Below the pieces are notes generated by a model, which saw only the letters and a list, made by a program, of their open reading frames with translations, was not told the origin of the DNA and ran no database searches. From contig JACPES010000003.1 in the NCBI GenBank assembly GCA_016183365.1, forward strand, positions 105,467 to 169,466: a stretch of DNA of 64,000 nt, read 5' to 3'. Below are positions 9,507 through 40,194 of the stretch, one piece after another; position 1 is the stretch's first letter; each line of letters starts with the position of its first letter. Made by a program: the position numbers and the translations under genes. This DNA is from Candidatus Collierbacteria bacterium (GTDB lineage: Bacteria > Patescibacteriota > Microgenomatia > UBA1400 > JACPES01).

Positions 9507-10477
9507 CAAAAAAGGCTATTATAGACATTCCCCCGACCACAGAAAAAGATATAGCCAGGTGGAATAACCTTAATCCTCAAAACTACGAACGAATTATCTG
9601 GTCATCAATTCGTGATTACAACTATAAAGCACAACTTGATATTTCAGAAATGCTATTCAAAAAGTTACAGGAGCTCAAAAAAGCTGGTAAACAGGATACC
9701 TCTTTAGCAAAAAACATTTCATTCAGGATGATGCAACTATTTTTTGAAGCATCTGACCAGTTTGCTCTCGTATTTATGAGCGTAATTAACAAGGCAATAA
9801 TACCAGTTTTTGAAACCTACGTTGAGGGAAGCAATATTAAAACCAAAGATTTTTTCGCTAAATGCATAAATGGAAAAATCGGTAAAAGGAAGATATTAAG
9901 TGTCTGGGGGCTAGATAAATTAAAGATCAAGTCCATCTCCGACGTTGTAATGAGAATTAAAATGCAAACTATCGTAGATGACACTGTTAAAAAAGAGAAA
10001 AGGAACTTAAAAATTTATGGAAAATCATATGCGGATTACAATAGAAAAACAAAAAAGACAGAATATTCTTCTTCATTGAAAGGCTCTTTTTCTATAAAGC
10101 ACGGATACAAACAAATATCTTCTAACAGCCTATCATTAAGTGTGTGGAAATTCGCTAAGAGTGAACCAATTATTATGGAAGAAATCGTAGAAATAACCAG
10201 AAAAGACAATAACGAAACCAAAAGAGTAATTAAAGTGGGCAGTTTGTTTAATAGTAAAAACAGAGATATTGAAGATATTTGTAAAAGGATTTTAGAGCAT
10301 ATAGCATTTTTATCTAGAGAAATACAAGCAATTGCTAGCATACAACTCTCGCTTATAGATGACCCTTATGGTTCACTAACACTGTATGCAAAAAATGGAA
10401 TATTAAAGATCGGAAGAAACGAATCGTGTCCTTGTAATAGTTTCAAAAAATGGAAAAAGTGTCATGGTAAATACTAA
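9503..10477 (+). CDS. Hypothetical protein with a C-terminal SEC-C metal-binding motif
   Basis: Ends GRNESCPCNSFKKWKKCHGKY (SEC-C motif). Markedly AT-rich and Lys-rich. 4-nt overlap with rarA. Confidence 0.45.
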   Translation: MTKKAIIDIPPTTEKDIARWNNLNPQNYERIIWSSIRDYNYKAQLDISEMLFKKLQELKKAGKQDTSLAKNISFRMMQLFFEASDQFALVFMSVINKAIIPVFETYVEGSNIKTKDFFAKCINGKIGKRKILSVWGLDKLKIKSISDVVMRIKMQTIVDDTVKKEKRNLKIYGKSYADYNRKTKKTEYSSSLKGSFSIKHGYKQISSNSLSLSVWKFAKSEPIIMEEIVEITRKDNNETKRVIKVGSLFNSKNRDIEDICKRILEHIAFLSREIQAIASIQLSLIDDPYGSLTLYAKNGILKIGRNESCPCNSFKKWKKCHGKY

Positions 10478-10858
10478 TACCAATACTATTTTCGCATAAA
10501 TGACACAGCCCTCTCTATGACAAAACTACAAAAATGTACAACCTCAAAAAACTAATTGTTAGACAAAAGAACTTCTCACGAGATAAAAAGGGAAACTAAT
10601 AACAGGAAGTCTGCATAATTCATGGAATGAAAACTATGTACTGACGATTGTTAGATACTTAATCCCAATTAGGCAAATTGGAAATCCGCCCCGGAATCTT
10701 TCGCCAACCTTCTTATCACTTTAATCCACCTCGAAACATATCTCCTCGACCAATTGCTGCGTTCTCTGGAGAAAAAATTCATCACCGAAGGCGGATATAC
10801 CGAGAATTTGTTTAAGAAAAGATTGGATTATCGAAAACAAAATATTGGCTACTAATCT

Positions 10859-11410
10859 TTATTTATTCAAAAGATAAAGGCAAAACGCCACGATGGTCGG
10901 GCCATCAATAACCCTACCACTTTTAATGGCGTTATTTATTTCATTTTCGCTCATTCTAACGGTAATCATATCCACCTCTGATCCTTCAAGTTTCCTTTTA
11001 ATCTTACGGCAATCTAATGCAAGATAAATAAAGAACCCCACTGTATTATGGCCCGGAGCAACATTAGCAAAACCCAATCGGACAAATTTAGCCGCCTTCA
11101 ACCCTACTTCTTCTTCAAGCTCTCGTCGAAGAGCTGACTCTATAGATTCATCTTTTTCTATAGCTCCGGCCGGAAACTCCAAAGACTTTCGCTGGATAGG
11201 ATATCGACATTGCTCGATTAAATAAAAATTGTTGTCTATCTTGGGAATAATCTCTACAAAATGTCGCCCCTCCACTACGCCATAAATTCCCGGTTTCCCA
11301 TCTGGTCTAACTACCTCGTCTTGCCGAACCGTTAACCACGGATTTTCGTAGACTCGCTTCGAGGAAATAGTTTTCCAAGGATTATTTATCATAGTATCAT
11401 CCCAAATCAC
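10859..11410 (-). CDS. NUDIX hydrolase
   Basis: Nudix box GAIEKDESIESALRRELEEEVG. Confidence 0.8.
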   Translation of the reverse strand: MIWDDTMINNPWKTISSKRVYENPWLTVRQDEVVRPDGKPGIYGVVEGRHFVEIIPKIDNNFYLIEQCRYPIQRKSLEFPAGAIEKDESIESALRRELEEEVGLKAAKFVRLGFANVAPGHNTVGFFIYLALDCRKIKRKLEGSEVDMITVRMSENEINNAIKSGRVIDGPTIVAFCLYLLNK

Positions 11411-11463
11411 GCCGAATTAATGACCTTATTTTACTCTATAAACTGCAATGAAAATAAAAAAAT

Positions 11464-12024
11464 CTATATCAATAACTTTTCAATAGTGTCAACAGCAATA
11501 ATAGTATTAGAATCTGTAATTAATCCTCTGGCTGTATCAAAACTCAACCACTTCATTTCATGAAACTCCTTCGTCAACCTTACCTCATCCGGCGAAAAAC
11601 CTGTTTTGTCCACCGGCGCGAAATACCAAATATCATAATGCCGCCGGCAAATTTGCCTGCCATTTGTAATCTCGGTTATTGTCAACAGCGACGGCTCCAA
11701 AGTTTTGGCCGCCGGATGAACAAACCCCCACTCTTCGCCCATCTCTCGCTCCAAAGTTTCCCCCAGAGTTTCACCTCGGTCAACATGCCCACCGTTAAAC
11801 AACCATAAATCAGACTTTTTATGCTGGCCGACAAAAACTTCTCTTACCTTCGGGTCAAAACCGGCAAAATACACCCCAAAATGCGTCGCCGGATTTTCAT
11901 CCCGCGTCAACTTCCCTTCTCCAATCCTTCTTAAAAACTTTTTCGACAGGAGACTACCCGCAAACTTGGTCTCAACCAAACTTCTGATTTCTCTCGCCAA
12001 AGAAATGCGATTCCGAATCTTCAC
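11464..12024 (-). CDS. NUDIX hydrolase
   Basis: Nudix box GGHVDRGETLGETLEREMGEEWG. Confidence 0.8.
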   Translation of the reverse strand: MKIRNRISLAREIRSLVETKFAGSLLSKKFLRRIGEGKLTRDENPATHFGVYFAGFDPKVREVFVGQHKKSDLWLFNGGHVDRGETLGETLEREMGEEWGFVHPAAKTLEPSLLTITEITNGRQICRRHYDIWYFAPVDKTGFSPDEVRLTKEFHEMKWLSFDTARGLITDSNTIIAVDTIEKLLI

Positions 12025-12068
12025 GCCTCCAATTGTAAACCATCACCATCACCATCAACATATAACTA

Positions 12069-12094
12069 GGTTAAATGATTCAAATCATTTAACC
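12069..12094. promoter_or_regulatory. Perfect 26-bp palindrome ggttaaatgattCaaatcatttaacc (family C, copy 1), 45 bp upstream of the NUDIX gene start
   Basis: Inverted repeat read directly. A second copy of the core is at 14053-14072. Confidence 0.4.
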
Positions 12095-12264
12095 TTCATT
12101 TATAAATTTCTTTTCTATGTCCCACCGCCAGAACAATGATGTTTTCCCCTTTAACGTCAACAGTCACCCGATAATCGTTAAGTCAGTCGAATCCACTAAT
12201 TCTTCCCAACCCCCCTCATCCTCTCAAAAAATGTCAAAGAGAATAGAGTAAAATAAATTTATCC

Positions 12265-12839
12265 ATGCCCAAACAAAGCCTCTCCAAGAAACATCTCAAG
12301 CTTCGTCAAGTTATTTACGCCTTTATCGATAGCCAGAATTTGAATTTAGGGACGGGTAAAGATATTTATAAAGGTAAAAAACTTATATACAAAGGTTGGA
12401 AATTGGATTTTAAAAAATTCCGGCAATATTTGTCTGATAAATTCCGCGCCGCAAAGGCGGTTTTATTTATCGGCTACATTAAGCAAAATGAAAAACTTTA
12501 TAGGCAGCTAAAATCATATGGATACGATCTCGTTTACAAACCCACTGTAAAAGATAATCACGGAAAAGCCAAGGGTAACGTGGACGCCGAGCTTGTTCTT
12601 CACGCGGCCGCCATTGAATATTGCATTACGACAAAGCCGTTATTGTGTCAGGAGACGGAGATTTCCATTGTTTATATGAGTATTTAGGAAAGCACAATAA
12701 ACTTTTTGGAATAATCATCCCTAACGAGAAATCAGAATCATCCTTACTAAGACAATTTCAATTATTTAAAACATTTCTCGTTTTTGACAGGAATAAGCTG
12801 GAGTTTAGGCCATTAAAAAATGGAGGGCGTCGCCCATAG
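12265..12839 (+). pseudogene. NYN (LabA-like) domain gene split by a frameshift
   Basis: ORF 12265-12687 carries the N-terminal NYN motifs (IDSQNL, GNVDAELVLHAA). ORF 12621-12839, in another frame, carries the downstream NYN motif DKAVIVSGDGDF. The frame shift is near 12625. Confidence 0.6.
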
Positions 12840-12910
12840 ACACGTAGTCTAAGGTTCGTATTCCTCCTTATGATGAGAGTATTATAGCTGTAGCAAACAC
12901 CTCAAGTCAA

Positions 12911-13477
12911 ATGAAACTTAAACACCACAATTTCCATTGGAGATATAAGAATTTAATCTTGACTTTTATTAGCATACTGTTGGCGGTATCGATTTCAAAG
13001 ATCGAATCAATCCATCAATTTTTAGCCGGTTTGGGAAATTTTGGATACGTCAGCGCTTTCATTGCCGGCGGATTATTCGTTTCCACTTTTACTGTGGCTC
13101 CGGGAGCCATAATTTTATTTTTCTTAGCCGAAACTTTTACTCCTTGGGAAATCGGTTTGTTTGCCGGATTGGGGGCGGTAGTTGGGGATTTAACTATTTT
13201 TAAATTCGTTAAAACCGGCTTGGCCGGCGAAATAACCGATATCTACAACCATGTTGACACCAGACATCATTTGAAAAAACTGTTTCATTCCAGATATTTC
13301 AGCTGGACCTTGCCGGTAGTCGGGGCGCTGATTATCGCCTCGCCTTTACCGGATGAATTGGGAGTGACTCTGATGGGCATTTCCCGTTTAAACAGTTTGC
13401 AGTTTTTAATAATCTCTTTCTTCTTAAACTCCATCGGAATATTCCTGATAATCTCCGGCGCGGCTTTGATTAAATAG
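12911..13477 (+). CDS. Hypothetical polytopic membrane protein
   Basis: 188 aa with 5-6 predicted TM helices. No family assigned. Confidence 0.45.
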   Translation: MKLKHHNFHWRYKNLILTFISILLAVSISKIESIHQFLAGLGNFGYVSAFIAGGLFVSTFTVAPGAIILFFLAETFTPWEIGLFAGLGAVVGDLTIFKFVKTGLAGEITDIYNHVDTRHHLKKLFHSRYFSWTLPVVGALIIASPLPDELGVTLMGISRLNSLQFLIISFFLNSIGIFLIISGAALIK

Positions 13478-13637
13478 CCATTTCAACCAGCTGATTTTCT
13501 TTCCCCCAATCCCCTCATCTCCTGTATCTTCTTCTTGACTTGGATTGATTAAATCCTTCGCCGACTATCGGAAAATGGTGAAACGGAAAGCAAACCTTGA
13601 TGTACAATGATTGATTTAAGAGAAGAAATAATAATTT

Positions 13638-13970
13638 ATGACTGAATATTTTAATTCACCGGCAGAAGCGACGGACGTCAGAAACGAATTAAAAAAAGCC
13701 AAGAAACAAGGAGCGGTTAGTGGCGGAGTGTTTGGGAGTATCTTAAAACCCGGCGGACGTAAACCTAACAGCGATATTGATATCGTTATCAATGATCATA
13801 AGGCGCCATATTTTGGTGAAATCGAGCAGAAAAAGGGCAAGAAGAGCGGAACCTGGCTACATATTTTCAGAAAAAAACCGGGGATGACCGAGGGCAAAAG
13901 CCGTTACGAAGAAATTCTAGATGAGGCTGAAATCGAGGGCAGAAAATTGTTTGGCGGCAAGAAACCCTGA
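13638..13970 (+). CDS. Minimal nucleotidyltransferase (MNT/Pol-beta superfamily) domain protein
   Basis: Signature GS-x(10)-DIDIV in VFGSILKPGGRKPNSDIDIVI. Confidence 0.5.
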   Translation: MTEYFNSPAEATDVRNELKKAKKQGAVSGGVFGSILKPGGRKPNSDIDIVINDHKAPYFGEIEQKKGKKSGTWLHIFRKKPGMTEGKSRYEEILDEAEIEGRKLFGGKKP

Positions 13971-14052
13971 ATATTCAGCAGTCTCCTGAATCAGCATTTT
14001 CTTCGTCAGATTCCCGAAATCCACACCCGTCTCAAATATAGTATAGTAATGT

Positions 14053-14072
14053 AAAATGATTTAAATCATTTT
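14053..14072. promoter_or_regulatory. 20-bp palindrome aaaatgattTaaatcatttt (family C, copy 2)
   Basis: Inverted repeat sharing the AAATGATTyAAATCATTT core with 12069-12094. Confidence 0.4.
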
Positions 14073-14101
14073 ATAGTTTTATTCCAAAATTATCGTGGGT
14101 C

Positions 14102-14335
14102 ATGGGTTTGTACAGACTCTTGATTTGGTTATTTAAAACTGTTTACAATAGAGTTATAATCTGTTTATATGAAAAAGAAGCAAACCCAAAACCAGTTTAT
14201 TTTATAGCTACTAAACATAAGAATAGTCCGGCGAAGGTTGCTTTCTACACAAAAGACGGTGGGCAGGTACCAGAGGATAAGGTAGAGAAAGAACCTACCA
14301 AGTCCGGCGTGCGTCTTTATACTTTTGCGTATTGA
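14102..14335 (+). CDS. Hypothetical small protein
   Basis: ORF only, AT-rich island. No homology recognised. Confidence 0.25.
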   Translation: MGLYRLLIWLFKTVYNRVIICLYEKEANPKPVYFIATKHKNSPAKVAFYTKDGGQVPEDKVEKEPTKSGVRLYTFAY

Positions 14336-14371
14336 TTCTCTCCTCATGTCGAAGAAAAAAATCGAGCCCCC

Positions 14372-14608
14372 TTGCCTCTGTCGATTTTGATATCGGGATC
14401 GGAGAAAATATTCCCTCTACACAGGAAGCCTTTAGAACTGGGACACATTCTTAAGAGGTTAGGAAAGAAGAGAAAAAAAGAATATAGATCTCGCAATATA
14501 GATAATATAGCAAAAACTGTTCTTGACGTTTTAAAAGAGTCGGCCGTCGGCGGAATGATGAAAAGAAACCTAAGCTTTAAGCAACTCCTTGATTCTGTTT
14601 TGCACTAA
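14372..14608 (+). CDS. Hypothetical small protein
   Basis: ORF only. No homology recognised. Confidence 0.25.
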   Translation: MPLSILISGSEKIFPLHRKPLELGHILKRLGKKRKKEYRSRNIDNIAKTVLDVLKESAVGGMMKRNLSFKQLLDSVLH

Positions 14609-14663
14609 GCGTTTCAGGACCGTCAGGCAAACTAATGCTGATAATTTAAGTTATAATAAAGTT

Positions 14664-14855
14664 ATGAATGACAAGCGAGCGCGCACCAGCGAGGGGAAGT
14701 ATCGGTCGATAAGAAGCGATACGAAAGTCGGTACTATTGAGCGAAAGTATGGCGTCGATTTGGGCGTTCGGCCGGATATGAAGCTGGGTAACTATCTTCA
14801 AAAGAAGGGCTATCCGTCGCTATCCAGCATGCTTAGAGATGCCGACTCTAAATGA
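14664..14855 (+). CDS. Hypothetical small protein
   Basis: ORF with a 4-nt overlap (ATGA) to the next gene. Start taken at MNDKRAR. Confidence 0.25.
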   Translation: MNDKRARTSEGKYRSIRSDTKVGTIERKYGVDLGVRPDMKLGNYLQKKGYPSLSSMLRDADSK

Positions 14856-15391
14856 GCAATTTCCCTTTTATCCAGAATCAAATTCTCCGTTTTAATCTAG
14901 ATGAAGCTTTTGTGCATATTGTTGACCTGCTTACCCTTTCCGAATCCGAGTCTTATAAAGGCAAAAATACTCTGGTAAGCAGCTTAAGAAAAACGATTAT
15001 TATTCATACGGCTTCCATAATTGAGGCCTTGCTATTATGGAAATTTAAACAAGTTTGCAATACGACAAAAATCGAACTTGCCGATGAATGGAAATATTTT
15101 TACATCAAACCAATTTATAAGATAAGCGAGTCGCAAGAAGTAATAGCCGGTTTTCGTAGAAAGGAACAAAGAGATATCGACAGAATCGAGTTTATCAGAG
15201 TAACAGAGTTGTGCCAAAAATATAACATTCTTCGTTCAAAGACACTGAGGACCGACATCGATACAGTCAGAGAGTTAAGAAATAAAATGCATATCGGGGG
15301 ACTTCCCGAAACAGAAGAAGAGTATAAGAAAAACGACCTTGAATTTTGTTTTGATGTTGCCAAGCGAATGAAAAAGTTGGTATCAAACTAA
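14852..15391 (+). CDS. Hypothetical protein, possibly a HEPN-like domain
   Basis: Contains an R-x6-H motif within RELRNKMH, resembling the HEPN R-x4-6-H signature. Weak evidence. Confidence 0.3.
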   Translation: MSNFPFIQNQILRFNLDEAFVHIVDLLTLSESESYKGKNTLVSSLRKTIIIHTASIIEALLLWKFKQVCNTTKIELADEWKYFYIKPIYKISESQEVIAGFRRKEQRDIDRIEFIRVTELCQKYNILRSKTLRTDIDTVRELRNKMHIGGLPETEEEYKKNDLEFCFDVAKRMKKLVSN

Positions 15392-15520
15392 TCTTTTTCC
15401 TTCGTGATTTGACTAGCTGAAGCCTTGGCGAAAGAAGGCCGCGGAGAGTTAATGACGAGGGGAATAATGACATTCTCAAATTATTCAGAATATTAGAATA
15501 ATGGATGGGGAGTTTGAAAA

Positions 15521-16246
15521 ATGAGAAATTATTTAACAATTGTTTTTATTGTGGGGATACTGGTTTTGGTGGTGGTCTTTGGCTATCGAAAAATATCTAG
15601 GCAGATAAATCAAGTGCCAAAACCTCAACTGGTGGAGGCGGCTGTTTTTTCCAAATTGGCAAAAGACGAAAACAATTTTCTTTTAGACGTCCATATTCCG
15701 GAGCAGACTCATATTCCGGGAACTAAAAAATTTATTCCATTCGATAAAATCTCTGAAAACTCTGACCAGCTTCCCGATGATAAAAATACTCCGATATTGG
15801 TCTATTGCCGGTCGGGGAATATGAGTAAAATCGCCGCGCAAAAAATTTCCCAACTTGGGTATACAAAAGTTTATGATCTGAAAGGCGGAATTGACGGATA
15901 TAAAGAATCCAATGTTGAGGTAAAAATTTATCCGTCAAGTCAGGATTTAGGCGAAGTAATTTACGGTGATGTGGCAACGACCACTTTTACTTTGACTAAT
16001 TTTTCGCAGGCGTCGTTAAAAATTACCGGAATCTCAACTTCCTGCGGTTGCACCAAAGCCGGAATGGAAAAGAAGGAATTAAAAGCTTACGAGACGGCTG
16101 AAATCAAGGTGTCTTTCGATCCGGCGGTGCATAAAGACGATACTGATTTGGGAGATCTTATCAGAACTATTTATATAGAAACCGACAATCCGAATTTTCC
16201 GCGGCTGACGAGTAACATTACCGCCAAAGTGATTAAGGGGAACTAA
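15521..16246 (+). CDS. Rhodanese-domain protein with a C-terminal DUF1573 domain
   Basis: N-terminal TM helix, rhodanese active-site loop VYCRSGNMS, C-terminal DUF1573-like region with a CGC motif. Confidence 0.6.
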   Translation: MRNYLTIVFIVGILVLVVVFGYRKISRQINQVPKPQLVEAAVFSKLAKDENNFLLDVHIPEQTHIPGTKKFIPFDKISENSDQLPDDKNTPILVYCRSGNMSKIAAQKISQLGYTKVYDLKGGIDGYKESNVEVKIYPSSQDLGEVIYGDVATTTFTLTNFSQASLKITGISTSCGCTKAGMEKKELKAYETAEIKVSFDPAVHKDDTDLGDLIRTIYIETDNPNFPRLTSNITAKVIKGN

Positions 16247-16776
16247 CCTTCCGGTTCGGGGGGTAGAAATTCTTCTCCGCCGGAATCGCTTTTGGAAGCA
16301 TAATCGCCGGGTTTAAGCCATTGGATATAAGTGCAGCCGGTGGCTTCGCGTTTGGCGCTGTCCCAACCGCTGGTGGAGCATTTCTTCATTTTCTTACCCT
16401 TGGCGGTGGTGTAAAACACCAATTTTTTGCCGCATTGCGGGCAGTCTTCGTTAGACTCTTCAGTTTTTCCGCTTATCCATTCGATAAAATCGCAGCCTTC
16501 GGCTTTTCTGGTGTCTTTATTCCAAGTATTAGTTGAACACTTTTTCATCTTCTTGCCAAACCGGGTGACGGCCATAACCAGGGGCGAACCGCACTTGGGG
16601 CATTTTTCATCTAACTCTTGGGGTTGGGGAACCAGCCATTTAACATAATCGCAACCCTCATTTTTCCGGGTGTCTTTATTCCAGTTGCCCTTGGAGCAGC
16701 GCTGGAGTTGGCGGCCGGTCGAAGTTTCCGCAACCGCCGATAAGCTGGCCCCGCATTTAGGACATTTTTCTTCCAT
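16243..16776 (-). CDS. Protein of three tandem topoisomerase-type C4 zinc-ribbon domains (zf-C4_Topoisom-like)
   Basis: Three repeats of CP(K/Q)CG-x-L ... CS-x-W-x ... GC-x-(Y/F)-x-W. Confidence 0.6.
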   Translation of the reverse strand: MEEKCPKCGASLSAVAETSTGRQLQRCSKGNWNKDTRKNEGCDYVKWLVPQPQELDEKCPKCGSPLVMAVTRFGKKMKKCSTNTWNKDTRKAEGCDFIEWISGKTEESNEDCPQCGKKLVFYTTAKGKKMKKCSTSGWDSAKREATGCTYIQWLKPGDYASKSDSGGEEFLPPEPEG

Positions 16777-16832
16777 ATAAATAATATATCAGATTTTGAT
16801 TTGTAAAGATATAGATTATTTTGTCTATCCCT

Positions 16833-16854
16833 AGATATCGATATTTTAAAACAT
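16833..16854. repeat. Family A palindromic motif (partial copy) agatatcgatattttaaaa
   Basis: Matches the left arm and centre of the 26-bp palindrome atatcgatattttaaaatatcgatat found at 25867, 26353 and 35821. Confidence 0.4.
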
Positions 16855-16886
16855 TAAACCTTTGTCAATCAGCATGTTTGGCGGAA

Positions 16887-17762
16887 TTACAGGACTATAC
16901 TTGTTTCGTCGGGGCTGGAATTAAAACCGGGCTTAGCGACGATATAAACATCTTGCTTAAAATCATTGATCCCGACCTGCTCGCCTTTTCCGGCAATTAT
17001 AGCCAAATACGGCTGGCAAACCCGGCAGCCGCTTTCGCCCTGCGGGCATTTAAACCGGTTTAACTGCCGGGCCAGTTTTAGCTGTTTGGCGATTATTAAC
17101 AATTTTTCGTGGGATTCTTTTTTATCCGGCAATTTCATTTCATTCGGCGTTTTAGAGTGGCCCAGGTACCAATAGCTGGCTTTGGCGACGACCCGATCCT
17201 GGCAATTCTCGACTAACAGATAGTAAATCGAGAGCTGAAGGGAGTCAGCGTCTTGTTTCTGCTTGCCGGTTTTAAAGTCTATGATATGAATCTTATCCTC
17301 GTCTTTTAAGTATTCCAGCCAGTCTATTTTGCCACACAAAATAATATTGTCTTCTTCCGACAGCCAAAAATACGGCAGGCCGGCCTTTATTTTAACGGCC
17401 AAATTTTTTAAAGGCCCGGGATTTTCTTCAATCATTTTAAGCATCTTCAAACCCTGATCTTTGTAATGATTTTCCGTCGCAATATCTAAAAATCCGCCCT
17501 GTTTGCCGCTGACTTTTTTCCAAGTAGGTTCAAATTTTTTCCACAACGGCTGTCTGAACCTGTCCTCAACCGCCAAAACCGACAACGATTCAACCACTTC
17601 GTGAACCGCCTGTCCCAAAGCCAATGACGGATTTATTAAAGTAATTTTATGTCCAGTGGCTTTATCGCGGTAAACGTTGTGCAGATAGTAGGCTCGGGGA
17701 CATTTGAGGAAATCCGAAATTGACGAATGCGATACCCAAACTGCGGTAAATTTATCTTTCAT
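16887..17762 (-). CDS. PD-(D/E)XK nuclease family protein (Cas4/RecB-like, DUF83 type) with an Fe-S cysteine cluster
   Basis: N-terminal Cys (CPRAYYL), core IDFKTG, and a C-terminal CPQGESGCRVCQP cysteine triad as in Cas4-like exonucleases. No CRISPR array in the window. Confidence 0.6.
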   Translation of the reverse strand: MKDKFTAVWVSHSSISDFLKCPRAYYLHNVYRDKATGHKITLINPSLALGQAVHEVVESLSVLAVEDRFRQPLWKKFEPTWKKVSGKQGGFLDIATENHYKDQGLKMLKMIEENPGPLKNLAVKIKAGLPYFWLSEEDNIILCGKIDWLEYLKDEDKIHIIDFKTGKQKQDADSLQLSIYYLLVENCQDRVVAKASYWYLGHSKTPNEMKLPDKKESHEKLLIIAKQLKLARQLNRFKCPQGESGCRVCQPYLAIIAGKGEQVGINDFKQDVYIVAKPGFNSSPDETSIVL

Positions 17763-17837: not shown

Positions 17838-17960
17838 ATGAGGATTTTGGTAGTTGAAGATGAGCGCAAAATTGCCGATTCGATCAAGAAGGGATTAGAG
17901 CAGGAGCGCGCGGAGCGCCGCAAAAAGAAGACTCTCGCTGGGGCGGCGAAGTCGCCAATT
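17838..17960 (+). pseudogene. Truncated N-terminal fragment of an OmpR-type response regulator receiver domain
   Basis: 41-aa ORF MRILVVEDERKIADSIKKGLEQE... matches the receiver-domain N-terminus, then reads into non-homologous sequence. Its stop abuts the 3' end of the CBASS effector gene. Confidence 0.5.
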
Positions 17961-18559
17961 TAAAAACGCTTTCTTAATTCTGTGGTTTCGTATTCAAAAA
18001 ACATATCACCTTGATTCCCTATGCTGTTCCAATAAAAACCTTCAATTCGATTATCTGCTGGAAGATATCGTATTTTCCCACTACCCTTATGTTGTTGCAT
18101 TGTGCCGCATTTTAGTGTGTTAGGGTCATTGTCATATGCATAGAACAAATATATTTCACTATTTAATTTTGTGAATGCACAAACCACACTTTCTGATTTA
18201 GATTTTTCGTAGTACCCCCTTACCAACACGGAAGAAAAAGTTTGTTCTATCTCAAGACAACCTTTTACCTCAACGTTTTTACCATTTTCTTGATAAGAAG
18301 ATCGCTGTTTTCCTTTCCACCGTCTGTTCAAATTGGGAATTGAAACTATCCCAAATGCTGTAAAAATGGGGCACCGCCATAAATATCGATCAAAGAGCAA
18401 GTATATTAATCCGTAACCGTAGATCGGAGACAAAGTGTCCACCCAGTATGGCAAGCTTGGTAAGATTTTACTGAACAGCCATGCTATAAGCAGGCTCAGC
18501 AATGGCATGACGCCTGCAAATAAAATAATGTGGCTTGTCTTTTTAAAATCCACTCCCAT
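17960..18559 (-). CDS. CBASS effector, two N-terminal TM helices plus a beta-rich C-terminal domain (Cap15-like)
   Basis: 199 aa. Two hydrophobic helices at residues about 10-70, C-terminal domain with no catalytic motifs. Sits directly downstream of a CD-NTase gene in the same orientation. Confidence 0.55.
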   Translation of the reverse strand: MGVDFKKTSHIILFAGVMPLLSLLIAWLFSKILPSLPYWVDTLSPIYGYGLIYLLFDRYLWRCPIFTAFGIVSIPNLNRRWKGKQRSSYQENGKNVEVKGCLEIEQTFSSVLVRGYYEKSKSESVVCAFTKLNSEIYLFYAYDNDPNTLKCGTMQQHKGSGKIRYLPADNRIEGFYWNSIGNQGDMFFEYETTELRKRF

Positions 18560-18574
18560 ATACTATTAGTTGTT

Positions 18575-19477
18575 TCAGTTGTTAATGTAATACTGCTCTG
18601 CCAGTGTGAAAAAATTTGATGCATCAAGTTTATTCCATTGCCAGAGTTTATCTCCGAAAAGCTTGTGTTGATGGCTTACCGTCAATAATTGATCCGCATC
18701 GCATTTCCTTAATATAAAATCAAATACGTAGGTAAGCGAAGTTTGATGATCGCCGTTAAAATGACCATTCGGAGCATTATAAATGGCACATTCAATAAAA
18801 TATGAAGGTGCTGTTTTTTGGTCAAAGCATTCACCCTCAACTAACTTTCGGCGTATATTTTTGACCACTCTCACAATATCTTTATACATCTCATCAGTTC
18901 TGTGCTGGGCATTTTTGTCTTCGCCGTGCTGAATATGTACTCGCGGATAATTGATTATTTCCGTGTTTTCTCTAATGGTCCGGAATTTCATTCCCTCTAC
19001 ATAGTCTTTTTTGTTGGATAAATCAAAACTGTTGTAGTTTCGATGTTGGAGACAAGGTACAACGTCTGCATTTAGTAAATTTTGATCTCCAATCAATTTT
19101 ATGCTTTTATTTCCGCTTGTTTTAATTTTTGATGTCCCAAAATGTGAAATTAACGCATTGATAACATCTTGCCGAAAATCTGACCAGTGGTAGGCTGCAT
19201 TGGAATATGTTAAATCAAAAAGGCTTTTTTGAAACGCATTGACCCTGGTGGTGTTGGGTGAAAACGTTGAGTTCAGCTGGACAACGATGTCAACATCACT
19301 GTCTGACTTGGTGTTGGTGCTATTAGCGTAAGAACCCTGCAAGTACACTTCAAAATTTCGGAGTTTGAGAGCCTCACTTAGAGATAGAGCTTTTCTTATC
19401 TGCTCATTGGTATGTTGAATTTTTGCACTCGCAGGTGCGTTTGCCCACGTTTGTAATTGATCGTTGCTAATCGCCAT
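18575..19477 (-). CDS. cGAS/DncV-like nucleotidyltransferase (CD-NTase, SMODS domain, clade-E-like)
   Basis: Nucleotidyltransferase signature GSYANSTNTKSDSDVDIVV, a downstream catalytic Asp in NADVVPC, and a helical C-terminal domain. 300 aa. Confidence 0.7.
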   Translation of the reverse strand: MAISNDQLQTWANAPASAKIQHTNEQIRKALSLSEALKLRNFEVYLQGSYANSTNTKSDSDVDIVVQLNSTFSPNTTRVNAFQKSLFDLTYSNAAYHWSDFRQDVINALISHFGTSKIKTSGNKSIKLIGDQNLLNADVVPCLQHRNYNSFDLSNKKDYVEGMKFRTIRENTEIINYPRVHIQHGEDKNAQHRTDEMYKDIVRVVKNIRRKLVEGECFDQKTAPSYFIECAIYNAPNGHFNGDHQTSLTYVFDFILRKCDADQLLTVSHQHKLFGDKLWQWNKLDASNFFTLAEQYYINN

Positions 19478-19536
19478 ATTTTCCCTATTGACATGAGTAG
19501 TAAAAAAGTAATAAACTAATAATATAACAACTGCCT

Positions 19537-20139
19537 ATGAAAGTCAATGTTCAAATGACCATAACTCCGAAGCAGAAGCGGGTACTTGATTTTATTAAGA
19601 GCTTTGTCAAGGACAACGGTTATTCGCCGTCGCTTCATGAAATAGCGAAACATTTCCGAAAATCCGTCAGTACCGCCCAGCATTTCGTGGAAGAATTGGG
19701 AAACAGGGGATTTCTCCAAAAAACCGATAACATGGCGCGCGGAATTAGCACAACAATTCAGCAATCCGGTCGCATTTTTAAGCTTGGCATCATTGCCGCC
19801 GGAGAACCGATAGAACCGATTGAAAATCCCGAACCGATAGACGTGCCGTTATCCATGATCAGCAGAAAAGGCGATTATTATGCACTCGAAGTTAAAGGGA
19901 CAAGCATGGAGGACGATAATATCCTCGATGGTGATGTTATCGTAGTCCGGCATCAGAAAACTGCGCAGGACAGTGATCGCGTGGTTGCCATAACTGAAAA
20001 AGGCGCAACCCTGAAAGTTTATCGGCAAAAAAACGGAATGGCTTATCTTGAACCCCGAAATAAATCATTGGCGAATATCTATCCGAAAAAGCTTGAAATA
20101 AGAGGAAAGTTTTGTGGTTTAATAAGAAAGGGAGATTAA
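19537..20139 (+). CDS. lexA: LexA repressor (S24 peptidase)
   Basis: N-terminal wHTH (SPSLHEIAKHF), linker AAG, catalytic Ser in GTSM and Lys in RKGD-region. Transcribed divergently from the CD-NTase gene. True start may be the internal Met at about 19555. Confidence 0.8.
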   Translation: MKVNVQMTITPKQKRVLDFIKSFVKDNGYSPSLHEIAKHFRKSVSTAQHFVEELGNRGFLQKTDNMARGISTTIQQSGRIFKLGIIAAGEPIEPIENPEPIDVPLSMISRKGDYYALEVKGTSMEDDNILDGDVIVVRHQKTAQDSDRVVAITEKGATLKVYRQKNGMAYLEPRNKSLANIYPKKLEIRGKFCGLIRKGD

Positions 20140-20166
20140 TGAACAGCTTGCCCGATTTCCAAAAGA

Positions 20167-20568
20167 ATGACAGATGTTTTTTCAAAGAAAAAGCGAAGCA
20201 GCATAATGTCCCTGATCGCCGGGAAAAACACGAAACCGGAGGTTATGGTCAGAAAAATTTTGTTTTCTTTGGGATATCGCTATCGATTGCATGTCTCTAA
20301 ATTACCGGGAAAGCCTGATATAGTTCTCGGTAAACAAAAAACGGCAATCTTCATAAACGGTTGTTTTTGGCATAAACATAATTGCGGTAAAAATGTAAAA
20401 CCAAGTACGAACATCAAGTTCTGGAAAAATAAACTGGATGAAAACGTAGAAAGACAAAAACAAAATATAAAAGAACTCAAAAATCTTGGTTGGAAACCAA
20501 TTATCATATGGGAATGCCAAACCAAGAAACAAAACCGACTGATTAACTTGTTACATAAAAGATTATGA
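20167..20568 (+). CDS. vsr: Very short patch repair endonuclease
   Basis: FINGCFWHKHNC ... FW-NK ... IWECQ motifs. Confidence 0.8.
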   Translation: MTDVFSKKKRSSIMSLIAGKNTKPEVMVRKILFSLGYRYRLHVSKLPGKPDIVLGKQKTAIFINGCFWHKHNCGKNVKPSTNIKFWKNKLDENVERQKQNIKELKNLGWKPIIIWECQTKKQNRLINLLHKRL

Positions 20569-21680
20569 AAAACAATATAAATCCAACATTCATAGATTTA
20601 TTTGCCGGAGCCGGGGGTTTGTCTATCGGACTTGAGCAGGCGGGGTTTAAGTTGGTTGCCGCAACCGATTGGGATCATTGGAGTTGCGAAACGTTGTGTG
20701 CAAATCATAAAAATATCATTGTAGAAGAAGGAGATATTTCCCTAGTTGATCTCGATGTGTTTCAAAAGAAGCTTCCGGTATCTGATGTAGATATGATAGT
20801 AGGAGGGCCGCCGTGTCAAGGATTTAGTGCTTTAGGCAAAAGATTAGTGAATGATCCAAGGAATCAGCTGTGGCGACAATACATGCGTTTTGTTGAGCAC
20901 TTTCTTCCAAAAGTATTTTTAATGGAAAATGTTCCCGAATTACTGAAGAGTCAGGAGTTTGCAGAAGTTAAATCTACGGCGGAACGACTCGGTTATATTA
21001 TTGAAGCAAAAATATTGCATGCAGTTGATTACGGAGTGCCGCAAAAACGGAAACGAGCAATCATAATCGGAAGCAGAATAGGAGCGCCAAAACACCCGGA
21101 GCCAACGCATCATGGCTTTGGTCAAATGTCGATTGATTCAAACGGAAAGGATCCGTGGAGGACAGTGGGTGATGTTATTCGAGATCTTCCGTTGGAGCCG
21201 GATGGAGAGAATTGGCACGTGGGAAGAAACCCAACGGCTAAATCACTAGCTAGATATAAGACAGTGCCTCCGGGCGGGAACAGATTTAATCTGCCGATTG
21301 AGCTCATGCCGAATTGCTGGATAAAAAAGAAAACGGGATCGACGGACGTTTTTGGAAGGTTAGAATGGAGTAAGCCCTCGTTGACAATAAGGACGGAATT
21401 TTTTAAGCCGGAAAAAGGAAGATATTTGCACCCGCAAGCCCATCGGCCGATTACGGTTAGGGAGGCGGCTAGGCTTCAGACATTTCCGGACAATTATATA
21501 TTAGTCGGATCTCATATAAACGTCGCCAAACAGGTTGGTAATGCCGTTCCGTGTGAATTGGCGAGAAAAGTGGGATTAGAAATACGTAAATTATTTGAGG
21601 TTGTTCTTGATGAGATCAAGCAGAAGAGCGTTGACAGTGATGCCTCTTTTCCCCGCGACTTCAGTTATCTTCAAACGTAG
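20565..21680 (+). CDS. dcm: DNA (cytosine-5)-methyltransferase
   Basis: Motif I DLFAGAGGLS, motif IV GGPPCQGFS, ENV, and a C-terminal QVGNAV. 4-nt overlap with vsr. Confidence 0.85.
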   Translation: MKNNINPTFIDLFAGAGGLSIGLEQAGFKLVAATDWDHWSCETLCANHKNIIVEEGDISLVDLDVFQKKLPVSDVDMIVGGPPCQGFSALGKRLVNDPRNQLWRQYMRFVEHFLPKVFLMENVPELLKSQEFAEVKSTAERLGYIIEAKILHAVDYGVPQKRKRAIIIGSRIGAPKHPEPTHHGFGQMSIDSNGKDPWRTVGDVIRDLPLEPDGENWHVGRNPTAKSLARYKTVPPGGNRFNLPIELMPNCWIKKKTGSTDVFGRLEWSKPSLTIRTEFFKPEKGRYLHPQAHRPITVREAARLQTFPDNYILVGSHINVAKQVGNAVPCELARKVGLEIRKLFEVVLDEIKQKSVDSDASFPRDFSYLQT

Positions 21681-22190
21681 GTCATCAGACAGGTTAAGGG
21701 TAATAATTTTATTTTTTGCCGTTTCGGGGTAAGCTAGGAGAGATTTTTTACCCGCATTGCATCTGCTGCAGAGTGTCCATAAGTTATTTTCTGTCGTTTT
21801 TCCTCCGAGTGTTAGCGGCTTTATGTGATCAATCTCCAATTTTACCCGTATCCCATCGGAAGATTTATCCTTATTTGTGTTCCCGCAAGTCTGACAGGTG
21901 TAATTATCCCGTTCAAGAATTTTAGACCGTAGCTTCAGGTTAATATATTTGTCCGCCGACTTTGTAGATTTTTTTACTGATTTAAGAATGTAACCTCTGT
22001 CACTATTTACGTATTTAATTTTCCAGCCCTCCGCGCGCAACTCTCGAATTCTTCGCGCGTAATTGTGTTGGCCGGAAACTTGTATCAATTCCTCGTTGGT
22101 AACGATTTTACCAAGCTTGGCATACAACGCATCGAGCAACTTTTGCCAGACTCCGTTTTTTGAGCTGGTTGGTTTATCGATTGCTTTCAT
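21591..22190 (-). CDS. HNH-family restriction endonuclease (N-terminal winged helix, C-terminal RHH-like tail)
   Basis: HNH core CQTCG ... DHIKP ... NLWTLCSRCN. The 3' end overlaps dcm convergently by 90 bp. Confidence 0.65.
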   Translation of the reverse strand: MKAIDKPTSSKNGVWQKLLDALYAKLGKIVTNEELIQVSGQHNYARRIRELRAEGWKIKYVNSDRGYILKSVKKSTKSADKYINLKLRSKILERDNYTCQTCGNTNKDKSSDGIRVKLEIDHIKPLTLGGKTTENNLWTLCSRCNAGKKSLLAYPETAKNKIITLNLSDDLRLKITEVAGKRGITVNALLLDLIKNNLK

Positions 22191-22402
22191 AAATTATCGA
22201 GTAAGTCAGAAATTCTTATTTTTAGCGCTTTGGCAATTTTTTCGATGTTCTCAAGTGTAATATTTTTTTCCGCACGTTCAATCATTCCTATATATGTTCT
22301 GTGCACTCCCACAATATCTGCAAACTGCTCTTGCGACAATTTTTGTTTAAGTCGCTCTTCGCGGACTTTTTGTCCAAATTTAATAAGGATATCTTTTTTC
22401 AT
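22187..22402 (-). CDS. XRE-family HTH controller (C) protein of the restriction-modification system
   Basis: 71 aa HTH_3 (LSQEQFADIVGVHRTYIGMIERAEKNITLENIEKIAKAL). 4-nt overlap with the downstream HNH gene. Confidence 0.7.
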   Translation of the reverse strand: MKKDILIKFGQKVREERLKQKLSQEQFADIVGVHRTYIGMIERAEKNITLENIEKIAKALKIRISDLLDNL

Positions 22403-39066: not shown

Positions 39067-39132
39067 ATTAACCCATAACTCCTACTTGACCGATTCGTAT
39101 TTCTTCTGTATAACAAAGCCCGAAAGGCAGAT

Positions 39133-40191: not shown

Positions 40192-40194
40192 GAT

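What the first reader, a model, noticed from the sequence alone, without database searches (positions are those of the whole stretch)
19478..19554. lexA transcribed divergently from the CBASS operon, suggesting a possible SOS link
Only about 60-75 bp separate the CD-NTase start (minus) from lexA (plus), so promoters and operators must overlap. Some CBASS operons are controlled by LexA-like CapH/CapP modules. Here a bona fide LexA sits in that position, so DNA-damage control of CBASS is a testable hypothesis. I could not recognise a canonical LexA box (neither CGAAC-N4-GTTCG nor CTGT-N8-ACAG) in the spacer. The only element shared with the recA upstream region is TATAACAA, which may simply be a -10 box.
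Basis: inference. Interest (0 to 1): 0.6.

Follow-up and report, generated by a model that had tools for sequence, protein, structure and literature searches.

The report
LexA-operated promoter slot driving CBASS
In this tiny-genome groundwater bacterium the DNA-damage repressor gene lexA and an anti-phage CBASS operon share one compact two-way promoter carrying a lineage-specific LexA binding site, and related bacteria plug many different defence systems into the same position, which suggests that DNA damage switches on immunity.

Summary
A two-gene CBASS operon (CdnE-like CD-NTase 18575-19477, Cap15 17960-18559, minus strand) lies 59 bp from a full-length, cleavage-competent lexA (19537-20139, plus). 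The organism is a Candidatus Collierbacteria (Patescibacteria).

The spacer plus the first 11 nt of lexA holds two overlapping divergent sigma-70-like promoters. Between their -35 boxes lie three direct repeats spaced 11 bp apart (GTAGTAAA / GTAATAAA / ATAATATA, 19497-19526). In 55 lexA loci from other species, repeats with this spacing occur in every LexA clade and change together with the LexA recognition helix, so I read them as the LexA operator. That explains why no canonical palindromic box was found.

The pairing recurs. A divergent gene lies upstream in 48 of 54 loci (median spacer 72 bp). At least 14 of 55 loci carry CBASS of five architectures there. Others carry a ThsB-like TIR protein, a Piwi-domain (Argonaute-like) protein, OLD-like ATPases or DUF2188. 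Three of five CdnE homologues retrieved independently also face lexA.

recA has no such operator, and the shared TATAACAA is simply the recA -10 box. LexA control of CBASS is therefore well supported by comparison but untested. I class it as a new variant of damage-responsive CBASS regulation (CapW, CapH/CapP, CapK/CapS).

The parts
19478..19536 (.). Spacer between the CD-NTase start codon (19477, minus) and the lexA ATG (19537); 59 bp.
   Evidence: The conserved block in relatives runs from the lexA -35 box to the minus-strand -35 box. The cargo side, left of 19486, is not conserved.
19488..19517 (+). Predicted lexA promoter: -35 TTGACA (19488-93), 18-bp spacer, -10 TAAACT (19512-17). The predicted transcription start is near 19524, which leaves a short leader without a Shine-Dalgarno (SD, ribosome-binding) sequence.
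   Evidence: 10 of 12 consensus matches. An equivalent promoter was found in 49 of 55 loci. TTGAC is invariant in clade A.
19519..19547 (-). Predicted CBASS promoter: -35 TTGACT (reverse complement of 19542-47, inside lexA codons 2-4 'KVN'), 17-bp spacer, -10 TATTAT (reverse complement of 19519-24). The predicted start is near 19512, giving a leader of about 35 nt.
   Evidence: 10 of 12. A minus-strand promoter overlapping the lexA promoter region or first ~20 nt of the ORF was found in 39 of 55 loci, against 13.6 expected from shuffles. GTCAA is invariant in 11 of 11 clade-A loci, including L003 and L004 where these bases are no longer coding.
19497..19526 (+). Candidate LexA operator: three direct repeats spaced 11 bp apart, GTAGTAAA (19497-504), GTAATAAA (19508-15) and ATAATATA (19519-26). 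They cover both -10 boxes.
   Evidence: This is the only exact match to GTNNTAAANNNGTANTAAA in the window. The clade-A position weight matrix (PWM) scores 37.4 bits here against 9.2 bits or less elsewhere in the 64 kb. Self-similarity at a shift of 11 bp is the highest of all shifts tested in all five clades. The repeat sequence changes with the recognition helix.
19482..19486 (-). SD-like AGGGA, 4 nt upstream of the CD-NTase ATG. It belongs to the cargo gene.
   Evidence: Read from the sequence. Each relative's divergent gene has its own SD in the non-conserved stretch next to the lexA -35 box.
18575..19477 (-). CD-NTase, clade E-like (cdnE), 300 aa.
17960..18559 (-). Cap15 effector: two TM helices plus a cyclic-nucleotide-binding beta-barrel; 199 aa. 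Second and last gene of the CBASS operon.
17934..17950 (-). Weak terminator-like hairpin just after cap15.
   Evidence: This is a consensus match only.
19537..20139 (+). lexA, 200 aa (alternative start 19555). Recognition helix SVSTAQHFVEEL, cleavage site A88-G89, catalytic S123 and K160.
20167..21680 (+). vsr (20167-20568) and dcm (20565-21680). They lie 27 bp downstream of lexA on the same strand, with no terminator predicted, so they are probably co-transcribed with lexA.
   Evidence: A DNA methyltransferase follows lexA in about 48 of 55 loci.
21591..22402 (-). Convergent HNH Type II restriction endonuclease (21591-22190) and a 71-aa HTH controller protein (22187-22402).
17838..17963 (+). 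41-codon remnant of an OmpR-type response-regulator gene (MRILVVEDERKIADSIKKGLEQE...) abutting the 3' end of cap15. It probably marks the far edge of the inserted CBASS cassette.
39086..39114 (+). recA promoter, used as a comparison: TTGACC, 17-bp spacer, TATAAC. It has no LexA operator.
   Evidence: In relatives the -35, the -10 and the leader are conserved but the spacer is not. The operator PWM scores 3.6 bits or less across the recA loci of relatives.

Best explanation
The 59-bp spacer plus the first 11 nt of lexA is one compact two-way promoter and operator unit.

Two sigma-70-type promoters fire in opposite directions. One drives lexA-vsr-dcm. The other drives cdnE-cap15. Their -10 boxes lie one base apart, at 19512-17 and 19519-24.

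Three direct repeats spaced 11 bp apart (19497-19526) form the lineage-specific LexA operator and cover both -10 boxes. Bound LexA would therefore repress its own operon and the CBASS operon together.

When RecA filaments form on single-stranded DNA, after DNA damage or during phage replication, LexA should cleave itself at Ala88-Gly89 and both promoters should be released. That would raise CD-NTase and Cap15 levels and prime abortive-infection immunity.

The CBASS genes bring only their own ribosome-binding site. The promoter belongs to the lexA unit. In related Patescibacteria the same position accepts many different promoter-less defence genes.

What is shown: the gene identities, the geometry, the predicted promoters, the conservation, the covariation between repeats and recognition helix, and the recurrence across species. 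What is inferred: LexA binding to the repeats, co-repression of both promoters, and induction by damage.
For: Geometry. The CD-NTase ATG is 10 bp from the lexA -35 box. The best minus-strand promoter has its -35 inside lexA codons 2-4.

Conservation. In 11 clade-A loci with different divergent genes, the block from TTGAC to GTCAA is nearly invariant and both flanks are variable. GTCAA is retained even where the lexA ATG is lost.

Operator.
- Self-similarity at a shift of 11 bp is the highest in all five LexA clades: 0.52 against 0.30-0.36 at other shifts, and 0.33 +/- 0.09 in shuffles.
- The repeat sequence tracks the recognition helix. STAQHF goes with GTCATAAA/GTAATAAA, STVHQH with TTTCGTAAC/TTTCGGTAT, SxPTxxQ with TTAG repeats, and SDGSVxQY with TACGTGTAT repeats.
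- Both repeats change together in L021 and L022.
- PMC7739468 states that Patescibacteria LexA recognises a direct-repeat motif.

LexA is competent. Its domains, scissile bond and Ser/Lys pair are invariant.

Recurrence.
- A divergent gene lies upstream in 48 of 54 loci, against a 17% background rate (p about 3e-31, treating loci as independent). The median spacer is 72 bp.
- At least 14 of 55 loci carry CBASS there, in five architectures.
- Three of five CdnE homologues retrieved through the cyclase also face lexA, and the other two face a small XRE HTH repressor.
- A minus-strand promoter occurs in 39 of 55 loci against 13.6 expected.

Precedent. CapW, CapH/CapP and CapK/CapS show that damage-responsive repressors encoded beside CBASS are a known strategy.
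Against: There are no binding, transcription-start or expression data. The promoters are consensus matches and the operator is inferred.

recA has no recognisable operator in the window or in six relatives, so this LexA may not run a classical SOS network.

The operator is AT-rich and overlaps promoter elements, so some of its conservation could reflect promoter function alone.

Clade-C loci mostly fail the minus-promoter criteria.

The hypervariable cargo, evidence of horizontal transfer, a dip in GC content and a gene remnant would also fit a pure insertion hotspot.

In E. coli strain data, defence expression correlates negatively with recA transcription.

The loci are related by descent, so the p-values overstate independence.
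Confidence: 0.6

Rival explanations
1. This is an insertion hotspot only. The position upstream of lexA is a recombination-prone site where defence cassettes accumulate. CBASS is expressed constitutively, and LexA regulates only its own operon.
For: The upstream genes differ between species whose LexA proteins are 85-90% identical. The L035 and L043 cassettes are 98-100% identical while their lexA genes are 64-78% identical and the outer flanks are unrelated. A response-regulator remnant lies at the far cassette edge. GC content is lower there. Restriction-modification systems occupy the other side of lexA.
Against: A neutral hotspot does not predict the 89% divergent orientation. It does not predict cargo start codons 10-40 nt from the lexA -35 box, which leaves no room for a separate promoter. 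It also does not predict a conserved minus-strand promoter embedded in the lexA unit, with the valine codon fixed as GTC in 11 of 11 loci and retained when non-coding. A hotspot and regulatory coupling are not mutually exclusive.
Confidence: 0.2
2. The 11-bp repeats are not LexA sites. They are AT-rich promoter architecture, such as UP-like or spacer elements, or sites for another DNA-binding protein. LexA binds elsewhere or not at all near this locus.
For: The repeats are A/T-rich and overlap both -10 boxes. No second gene in the window carries them. The published Patescibacteria motif could not be read for comparison.
Against: The repeat sequence differs sharply between clades in step with the LexA recognition helix, while the -35 box stays TTGAC. 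Both repeats change together within a locus in L021 and L022. A signal at an 11-bp shift is seen in GC-containing versions too, such as TTTCGTAAC and TACGTGTAT. A direct-repeat LexA motif is reported for this superphylum.
Confidence: 0.1
3. LexA here is a dedicated controller of the restriction-modification and defence island, like a C protein, and is no longer coupled to RecA or DNA damage. CBASS would then be co-regulated with lexA but not inducible by damage.
For: recA lacks the operator. lexA is co-transcribed with a methyltransferase in about 48 of 55 loci. No other operator was found in 64 kb.
Against: The Ala-Gly site and the Ser/Lys pair are invariant across 25 diverse homologues, which is hard to explain without selection for self-cleavage. 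recA-recX is present and intact. Only about 64 kb of the genome could be scanned.
Confidence: 0.1

Closest known systems
CapH/CapP, CapW and CapK/CapS regulators of CBASS and other immune operons (bioRxiv 10.1101/2022.04.27.489752; PMC9122588; PMC11662680; PMC13373217)
   Same: A repressor gene encoded immediately upstream of the CD-NTase operon controls the shared promoter region. The repressor is inactivated after DNA damage (by proteolysis in CapH/CapP), which raises immune gene expression.
   Different: Those regulators are XRE-HTH plus IrrE-like metallopeptidase, wHTH-WYL-WCX, or kinase plus repressor modules that travel with the immune operon. Here the regulator is the chromosomal self-cleaving LexA, which needs RecA filaments. 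It stays in place while the immune cargo changes. No CapP-like, WYL or kinase gene is present.
lexA-divergent SOS genes of Firmicutes and Actinobacteria (B. subtilis lexA/yneA, S. aureus lexA/sosA, M. tuberculosis lexA/chiZ); from my own knowledge
   Same: lexA is transcribed divergently from a LexA-repressed gene, with the operators in the short shared spacer. The product of the divergent gene arrests or harms the cell.
   Different: In those organisms the divergent gene is a fixed small cell-division inhibitor and the operator is the palindromic GAAC-N4-GTTC. Here the position holds interchangeable phage-defence systems and the operator is a direct repeat.
Direct-repeat LexA motifs: Alphaproteobacteria GTTC-N7-GTTC, Balneolaeota TTACACATATTTTWTACATA, and Patescibacteria (Sanchez-Osuna et al. 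2017, cited in PMC7739468 and PMC8565304)
   Same: Half-sites are arranged head to tail about one helical turn (11 bp) apart rather than as a palindrome.
   Different: The sequence of the repeat differs (GTmATAAA type in this clade). I could not read the 2017 paper, so identity with the published Patescibacteria motif, and whether that study noted defence genes in the regulon, is unknown.
Core defence hotspots flanked by conserved genes (for example in Pseudomonas and E. coli pangenomes); from my own knowledge
   Same: A conserved anchor gene is flanked by hypervariable, horizontally exchanged defence cargo.
   Different: Here the anchor is itself a regulator, and its promoter and operator unit appears to supply transcription to the cargo.

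Membership tests
LexA repressor | N-terminal LexA-type winged helix-turn-helix | tested here: met
   PF01726 at 1.1e-13. Full-length alignment to solved LexA structures 3k2z, 1jhh and 3jso.
LexA repressor | C-terminal S24 peptidase with a Ser/Lys catalytic pair | tested here: met
   PF00717 at 6.7e-22. S123 (KGTSM) and K160 (TLKV) are invariant in 25 homologues.
LexA repressor | Ala-Gly scissile bond in the linker | tested here: met
   A88-G89 in IAAGEPIE, invariant.
LexA repressor | Binds an operator in its own promoter (autoregulation) | tested here: inconclusive
   A conserved candidate operator of 11-bp direct repeats covers the -10 box and changes with the recognition helix. Binding itself cannot be tested here.
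LexA repressor | RecA-stimulated self-cleavage after DNA damage | not testable with these tools
   recA-recX is present at 39133-40650.
LexA repressor | Represses recA and DNA-repair genes (SOS regulon) | tested here: not met
   The recA promoter carries no operator in the window or in six relatives: PWM 3.6 bits or less there, against 37 bits or more at lexA. Only 64 kb of the genome was available.
CBASS type I | CD-NTase with the GS...DxD nucleotidyltransferase core | tested here: met
   PADLOC cyclase at 2.6e-95 over the full length. CdnE structure 6e0k at 1.5e-54. Motif GSYANSTNTKSDSDVD.
CBASS type I | Adjacent effector with a cyclic-nucleotide receptor domain | tested here: met
   Cap15_CD_rec at 8.3e-19 and the Cap15 TM helices. 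PADLOC 2TM effector at 2.3e-52. There is a 15-bp gap to the cyclase gene.
CBASS type I | No Cap2/Cap3 or HORMA/TRIP13 accessory genes | tested here: met
   The neighbouring genes are a PD-(D/E)XK nuclease and a zinc-ribbon protein, separated by 197 bp and a hairpin.
CBASS type I | Protects against phage | not testable with these tools
   The organism is uncultured.
CapH/CapP module | XRE-type HTH repressor paired with an IrrE/ImmA-like zinc metallopeptidase | tested here: not met
   No such domains were found in or around the operon. LexA is an S24 serine peptidase fused to a wHTH.
CapW / BrxR | wHTH-WYL-WCX architecture | tested here: not met
   No WYL domain was found.
lexA-divergent SOS gene pair (yneA/sosA type) | Gene transcribed divergently from lexA with a shared operator-bearing spacer | tested here: met
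   This applies to the arrangement and the candidate operator only.
lexA-divergent SOS gene pair (yneA/sosA type) | The divergent gene encodes a small cell-division inhibitor | tested here: not met
   The divergent genes are cdnE-cap15.
Patescibacteria direct-repeat LexA motif (Sanchez-Osuna 2017) | Direct-repeat rather than palindromic operator | tested here: met
   Self-similarity peaks at a shift of 11 bp.
Patescibacteria direct-repeat LexA motif (Sanchez-Osuna 2017) | Sequence identity with the published motif | not testable with these tools
   The paper is not held.

The most novel reading that the evidence does not exclude
In Microgenomates and other Patescibacteria, LexA is mainly the switch of a defence island rather than of DNA repair. 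A conserved 60-bp two-way LexA-operated promoter unit acts as a plug-in expression slot. On one side it drives interchangeable promoter-less anti-phage cargo: CBASS of at least five architectures, ThsB-like TIR, a Piwi-domain (Argonaute-like) protein, OLD-like ATPases, Schlafen and DUF2188. On the other side it drives lexA together with the methyltransferase of a restriction-modification system. recA lies outside the regulon. Damage signals, from phage replication or from self-restriction, would then raise abortive-infection immunity and protective methylation together.
Probability: 0.35. Interest if true: 0.8.

Novelty: new variant of a known kind. Interest (0 to 1): 0.66.

Why it matters
How toxic abortive-infection systems are kept quiet until needed is an open question. 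The regulators known so far (CapW, CapH/CapP, CapK/CapS) are specialised modules that travel with the immune operon.

Here the universal SOS repressor itself appears to do that job, in a phylum with tiny genomes and very few regulators. It does so through a fixed promoter and operator unit that many different defence systems have been slotted into.

If confirmed, this would link RecA/LexA damage sensing directly to CBASS, ThsB-like TIR proteins, Argonaute-like proteins and restriction-modification in uncultured Patescibacteria. It would provide a natural plug-in expression slot for finding new defence genes, namely the unannotated cargo beside lexA. It would also redefine what the LexA regulon is for in this superphylum.

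The prediction can be tested directly with purified protein and a heterologous reporter, without culturing the organism.

Tried and rejected
- Canonical LexA boxes. I searched for CTGT-N8-ACAG, GAAC-N4-GTTC, GTTC-N7-GTTC, AGTAC-N4-GTACT, TTAC-N3-GTAA and TAGTA-N6-TACTA. There are no exact matches in the window, none with one mismatch or fewer near lexA or recA, and counts at or below chance.
- TATAACAA as a shared operator. Rejected. It is the conserved recA -10 box and leader, and it is not conserved in the lexA spacer of relatives.
- An 11-bp repeat in the window's recA spacer (CGTAT...TGTAT). Rejected as an operator because it is not conserved in relatives and scores at background with the operator PWM.
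- A metagenome scan for close recA relatives returned only hits at 69% identity or less, from unrelated bacteria, and gave no useful footprint. I replaced it with a protein search plus contig look-ups.
- A search for further operator copies. None was found in the 64-kb window, in the +/-6 kb around 39 lexA loci (clades A-C) or in six recA loci.
- The operator 22-mer has no match in IMG/VR viral contigs.
- The 2017 Patescibacteria SOS paper could not be retrieved, so the published motif and regulon were not compared.
- A separate CBASS promoter between the cdnE ATG and the lexA -35 box. Rejected because only 10 bp lie there.
- Mobile-element markers near the island. No integrase or transposase appears among the genes called within about 7 kb on either side.
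Full report
**Anatomy of the region.** The window comes from a Candidatus Collierbacteria bacterium (Patescibacteria, Microgenomates). Its LexA is 100% identical to a protein with that name, and the nearest homologues are Collierbacteria and Gottesmanbacteria proteins. The minus strand carries two genes:
- 18575-19477 is a 300-aa CD-NTase. It matches the PADLOC oligonucleotide-cyclase model at 2.6e-95 over its full length. Its best solved relative is Rhodothermus CdnE 6e0k at 1.5e-54.
- 17960-18559 is a 199-aa Cap15 effector, with Cap15_CD_rec at 8.3e-19 and the PADLOC 2TM effector model at 2.3e-52.

A weak hairpin follows cap15. No Cap2/3 or HORMA/TRIP13 genes are present, so this is a two-gene type I CBASS.

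The plus strand carries lexA at 19537-20139. It has the LexA wHTH and S24 peptidase domains. It aligns over its full length to solved LexA structures. It keeps the Ala88-Gly89 cleavage site and the Ser123/Lys160 catalytic pair, all invariant in 25 homologues. vsr, dcm, a convergent HNH restriction enzyme and a small HTH controller follow lexA.

The spacer is 59 bp, or 77 bp if the second ATG at 19555 is the true start. That ambiguity is real. L003 and L004 have ATA at the first position, and the structural alignment to Thermotoga LexA begins at residue 7.

**Promoters.** The consensus scan finds two strong promoter-like sites in the region:
- Plus strand: TTGACA (19488-93), 18-bp spacer, TAAACT (ending 19517).
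- Minus strand: TTGACT (reverse complement of 19542-47), 17-bp spacer, TATTAT (reverse complement of 19519-24).

Each matches 10 of 12 consensus positions. A third, weaker match (9 of 12) lies on the minus strand inside lexA.

The cdnE start codon is only 10 bp from the lexA -35 box, so the CBASS promoter cannot lie anywhere else upstream. Its -35 box sits in lexA codons 2-4 (K-V-N). The two -10 boxes are one base apart.

**The operator.** No canonical LexA box exists near lexA or recA. I retrieved 56 lexA loci from one-genome-per-species GTDB assemblies; 54 of them, plus the window, gave 55 loci with a usable lexA start. In each LexA clade the stretch between the lexA -35 box and the start codon is strongly conserved and is built of direct repeats spaced 11 bp apart. 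Self-similarity at a shift of 11 bp is the highest of all shifts from 5 to 17 bp in all five clades. The mean is 0.52, against 0.30-0.36 at other shifts and 0.33 +/- 0.09 in shuffles.

The repeat sequence changes with the LexA recognition helix:

| Recognition helix | Repeat sequence |
|---|---|
| S[VI]STAQHFVEEL | GTCATAAA-aaa-GTAATAAA-tta-ATAATAG |
| NLSTAQYFVxEL | CTGTAAA-ttta-TCATAAA |
| ISTVHQHVKAL | TTTCGTAAC-ag-TTTCGGTAT |
| SxPTxxQxVETL | TTAGTAAAAT-TTTAGGTA |
| SDGSVxQYLDAL | TACGTGTATTA-TACGTGTAT |

Within single loci both repeats change together: TTTAG/TTTAG in L022 and TTTCGA/TTTCGA in L021. A paper from the group that studied this superphylum states that its LexA recognises a direct-repeat motif (PMC7739468). 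The primary paper was not available.

In the window the repeats are GTAGTAAA (19497), GTAATAAA (19508) and ATAATATA (19519). This site scores 37.4 bits with the clade-A matrix. The next-best site in 64 kb scores 9.2 bits. The repeats cover both -10 boxes.

**The promoter unit is conserved and the cargo is not.** I aligned 11 clade-A loci whose divergent genes differ (CBASS, DUF2130, ThsB-TIR, a metallo-beta-lactamase-like gene and several unknowns). Near-invariance runs from TTGAC (the lexA -35) to GTCAA (the minus-strand -35). Both flanks are variable. The valine codon is GTC in 11 of 11 loci, and AAAGTCAAT is retained in L003 and L004 where it is no longer translated. This conservation acts on the DNA, as expected for a -35 element.

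Each cargo gene brings its own Shine-Dalgarno sequence in the 10-40 nt next to the lexA -35 box. A minus-strand promoter overlapping the lexA promoter region or the first ~20 nt of the ORF (its -35 lies within the early lexA codons in most cases) is found in 39 of 55 loci, against 13.6 expected from shuffles. Clade C mostly falls below the threshold.

**Recurrence across species.**
- Upstream of lexA the neighbouring gene is divergent in 48 of 54 loci, against 16.6% of other adjacent gene pairs in the same loci. This gives p about 3e-31 if the loci are treated as independent, which they are not fully. The median spacer is 72 bp.
- At least 14 of 55 loci carry CBASS there, in five architectures:
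  - Cap15-2TM: the window, L020, L028.
  - NucC: L019, L026.
  - TRIP13-containing type III: L052.
  - HNH-SAVED: L023, L027, L037.
  - 1TM or SAVED effectors with a large cyclase: L016, L030, L035, L043, L048.
- Other cargo includes ThsB-like TIR (L006), a Piwi-domain protein (L024), AAA_15/DUF4435 OLD-like ATPases (L018, L009), Schlafen/AlbA_2 (L045, L046), PIN-TPR-GreABC (L047) and DUF2188, which corresponds to PADLOC candidate PDC-S16 (seven loci).
- As a reverse test, I took five homologues of the window's cyclase (62-69% identity), chosen only for contig length. Three face lexA (L147, L148, L154). Two of these have DUF2188 as the first gene of the divergent operon. The other two face a 68-aa XRE HTH gene in the same position.
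- L035 and L043 share a CBASS cassette that is 98-100% identical in nucleotide sequence. Their lexA genes are only 64-78% identical and the outer flanks are unrelated. The cargo therefore moves horizontally into this position.
- In the window, a 41-codon remnant of a response-regulator gene abuts cap15, which is consistent with insertion.

**recA and the SOS question.** recA (39133-40191) has a TTGACC-N17-TATAAC promoter. In six relatives with RecA 78-93% identical, the -35 box, the -10 box and the leader TATAACAAAGCCCGAAAGG are conserved in most. The spacer between the two boxes is not conserved. The operator matrix scores 3.6 bits or less across those loci. The TATAACAA shared with the lexA spacer is therefore the recA -10 box, and the match is coincidental. 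Within the DNA I could examine, the only LexA target is the lexA/CBASS promoter unit. The LexA regulon of this organism may be very small and centred on this island, but only 64 kb of the genome was available.

**Downstream side.** In 52 of 55 loci a gene on the same strand follows lexA within 60 bp. In about 48 of 55 loci it is a DNA methyltransferase, or vsr followed by dcm. The families are varied: C5, N4/N6, Eco57I-like and D12. A Type II restriction enzyme of many different families usually follows in convergent orientation. lexA therefore sits between two variable defence positions.

**Mechanism proposed.** LexA bound to the phased repeats blocks both -10 boxes and represses lexA-vsr-dcm and cdnE-cap15 together. 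RecA filaments formed after DNA damage or during phage replication trigger LexA self-cleavage and release both promoters. The gene identities, geometry, conservation, covariation and recurrence are shown. Binding, co-repression and induction are inferred. I put the probability at about 0.6.

The main rival is a defence hotspot without regulatory coupling (0.2). It explains the variability and the horizontal transfer. It does not explain the orientation bias, the missing space for a cargo promoter, or the conserved minus-strand promoter inside the lexA unit.

**Comparison with known systems.**
- In function this resembles CapW, CapH/CapP and CapK/CapS, the damage-responsive regulators encoded beside CBASS operons. 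It is not a member of any of those families, because no XRE/metallopeptidase pair, WYL domain or kinase is present.
- In layout it resembles the lexA/yneA, lexA/sosA and lexA/chiZ divergent pairs of Gram-positive bacteria (from my own knowledge), with phage-defence cargo in place of a division inhibitor.
- The operator type belongs with the direct-repeat LexA motifs of Alphaproteobacteria, Balneolaeota and Patescibacteria.
- I found no paper in the library that links canonical LexA to CBASS or describes defence islands beside lexA in Patescibacteria. The 2017 Patescibacteria SOS paper could not be checked.

**Verdict.** It is a new variant of a known kind of regulation. Interest is 0.66.

Noticed in passing
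window 19537-22402; L001-L054 downstream of lexA: lexA is the first gene of an operon with a DNA methyltransferase in about 48 of 55 Patescibacteria loci. The methyltransferase families vary (C5, N4/N6, Eco57I-like, D12, or vsr+dcm). A convergent Type II restriction enzyme and a small HTH controller gene usually follow. LexA-controlled methyltransferase expression could act as restriction alleviation after self-restriction damage.
   Followed up: partly
window 17838-17963 (+): A 41-codon ORF, MRILVVEDERKIADSIKKGLEQERAERRKKK..., is the truncated N-terminus of an OmpR-type response regulator. It abuts and slightly overlaps the 3' end of cap15. It looks like a scar from insertion of the CBASS cassette.
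   Followed up: partly
L035:3840-5800 vs L043:3840-5800: The CBASS cassette (1TM effector plus a 472-aa cyclase) is 98-100% identical in nucleotide sequence between two species whose adjacent lexA genes are only 64-78% identical and whose outer flanks are unrelated. This indicates recent horizontal exchange of cargo into the same lexA-adjacent position. One breakpoint lies about 120 bp inside the first cargo gene.
   Followed up: partly
L022, L025, L039, L041, L044, L049, L050; L147:2755-2994; L154:2760-2999: A roughly 77-aa DUF2188 protein (PADLOC candidate PDC-S16) is the commonest first gene divergent from lexA. In L147 and in L154/L155 it immediately precedes the cyclase gene (cdnE-cap15 in L154/L155; the L147 contig ends after cdnE). 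It may be the ancestral LexA-regulated gene at this position. Its function is unknown.
   Followed up: no
L150:1804-2906 and L151:2691-2897: Two homologous cdnE-cap15 operons lack lexA. They have a divergent 68-aa XRE-type HTH gene in the equivalent position, next to a PLDc_2 gene, with no CapP-like peptidase visible. This may be an alternative local repressor.
   Followed up: no
window 39086-39132; L141-L146: The recA promoter and leader TTGACC-N17-TATAACAAAGCCCGAAAGG are conserved across most relatives, with recA-recX-rny synteny, but there is no LexA operator. recA appears to lie outside the LexA regulon in this lineage.
   Followed up: yes
window 19524-19557; L003:5590-5620; L004:4180-4210: lexA has no Shine-Dalgarno sequence before either candidate start codon. 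Its N-terminal MKVNVQ extension is absent from solved LexA proteins. In L003 and L004 the first ATG is ATA, yet AAAGTCAAT is kept. The extension seems to exist mainly to carry the -35 box of the divergent promoter.
   Followed up: partly
window 16243-17762 (-): A PD-(D/E)XK/Cas4-like nuclease (291 aa) and a protein with three topoisomerase-type zinc ribbons (177 aa) lie downstream of the CBASS operon on the same strand, after a 197-bp gap. Whether they belong to the defence island is unclear.
   Followed up: no
window 21591-21680: The 3' ends of dcm (plus strand) and the HNH restriction gene (minus strand) overlap by 90 bp, which is an unusually long convergent overlap.
   Followed up: no
window 10000-16000: GC content drops to 38-39.5%, against 42-47% in most of the rest of the window. 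The stretch carries many small ORFs with no family match, plus an NYN-domain gene. It may be a further part of a variable island upstream of the CBASS operon.
   Followed up: no
L148:2939-3000; L147, L154: A sixth LexA clade (N-terminus MLPTKQKEVL) has a different spacer, TTGACATTAAGGTAACAGTACCATAAACTATTAGGTATATCAAG, in which AGGTAAC/AGGTATA and GTACCATA/GTACATA recur about 22 bp apart. This is another lineage-specific version of the operator.
   Followed up: no
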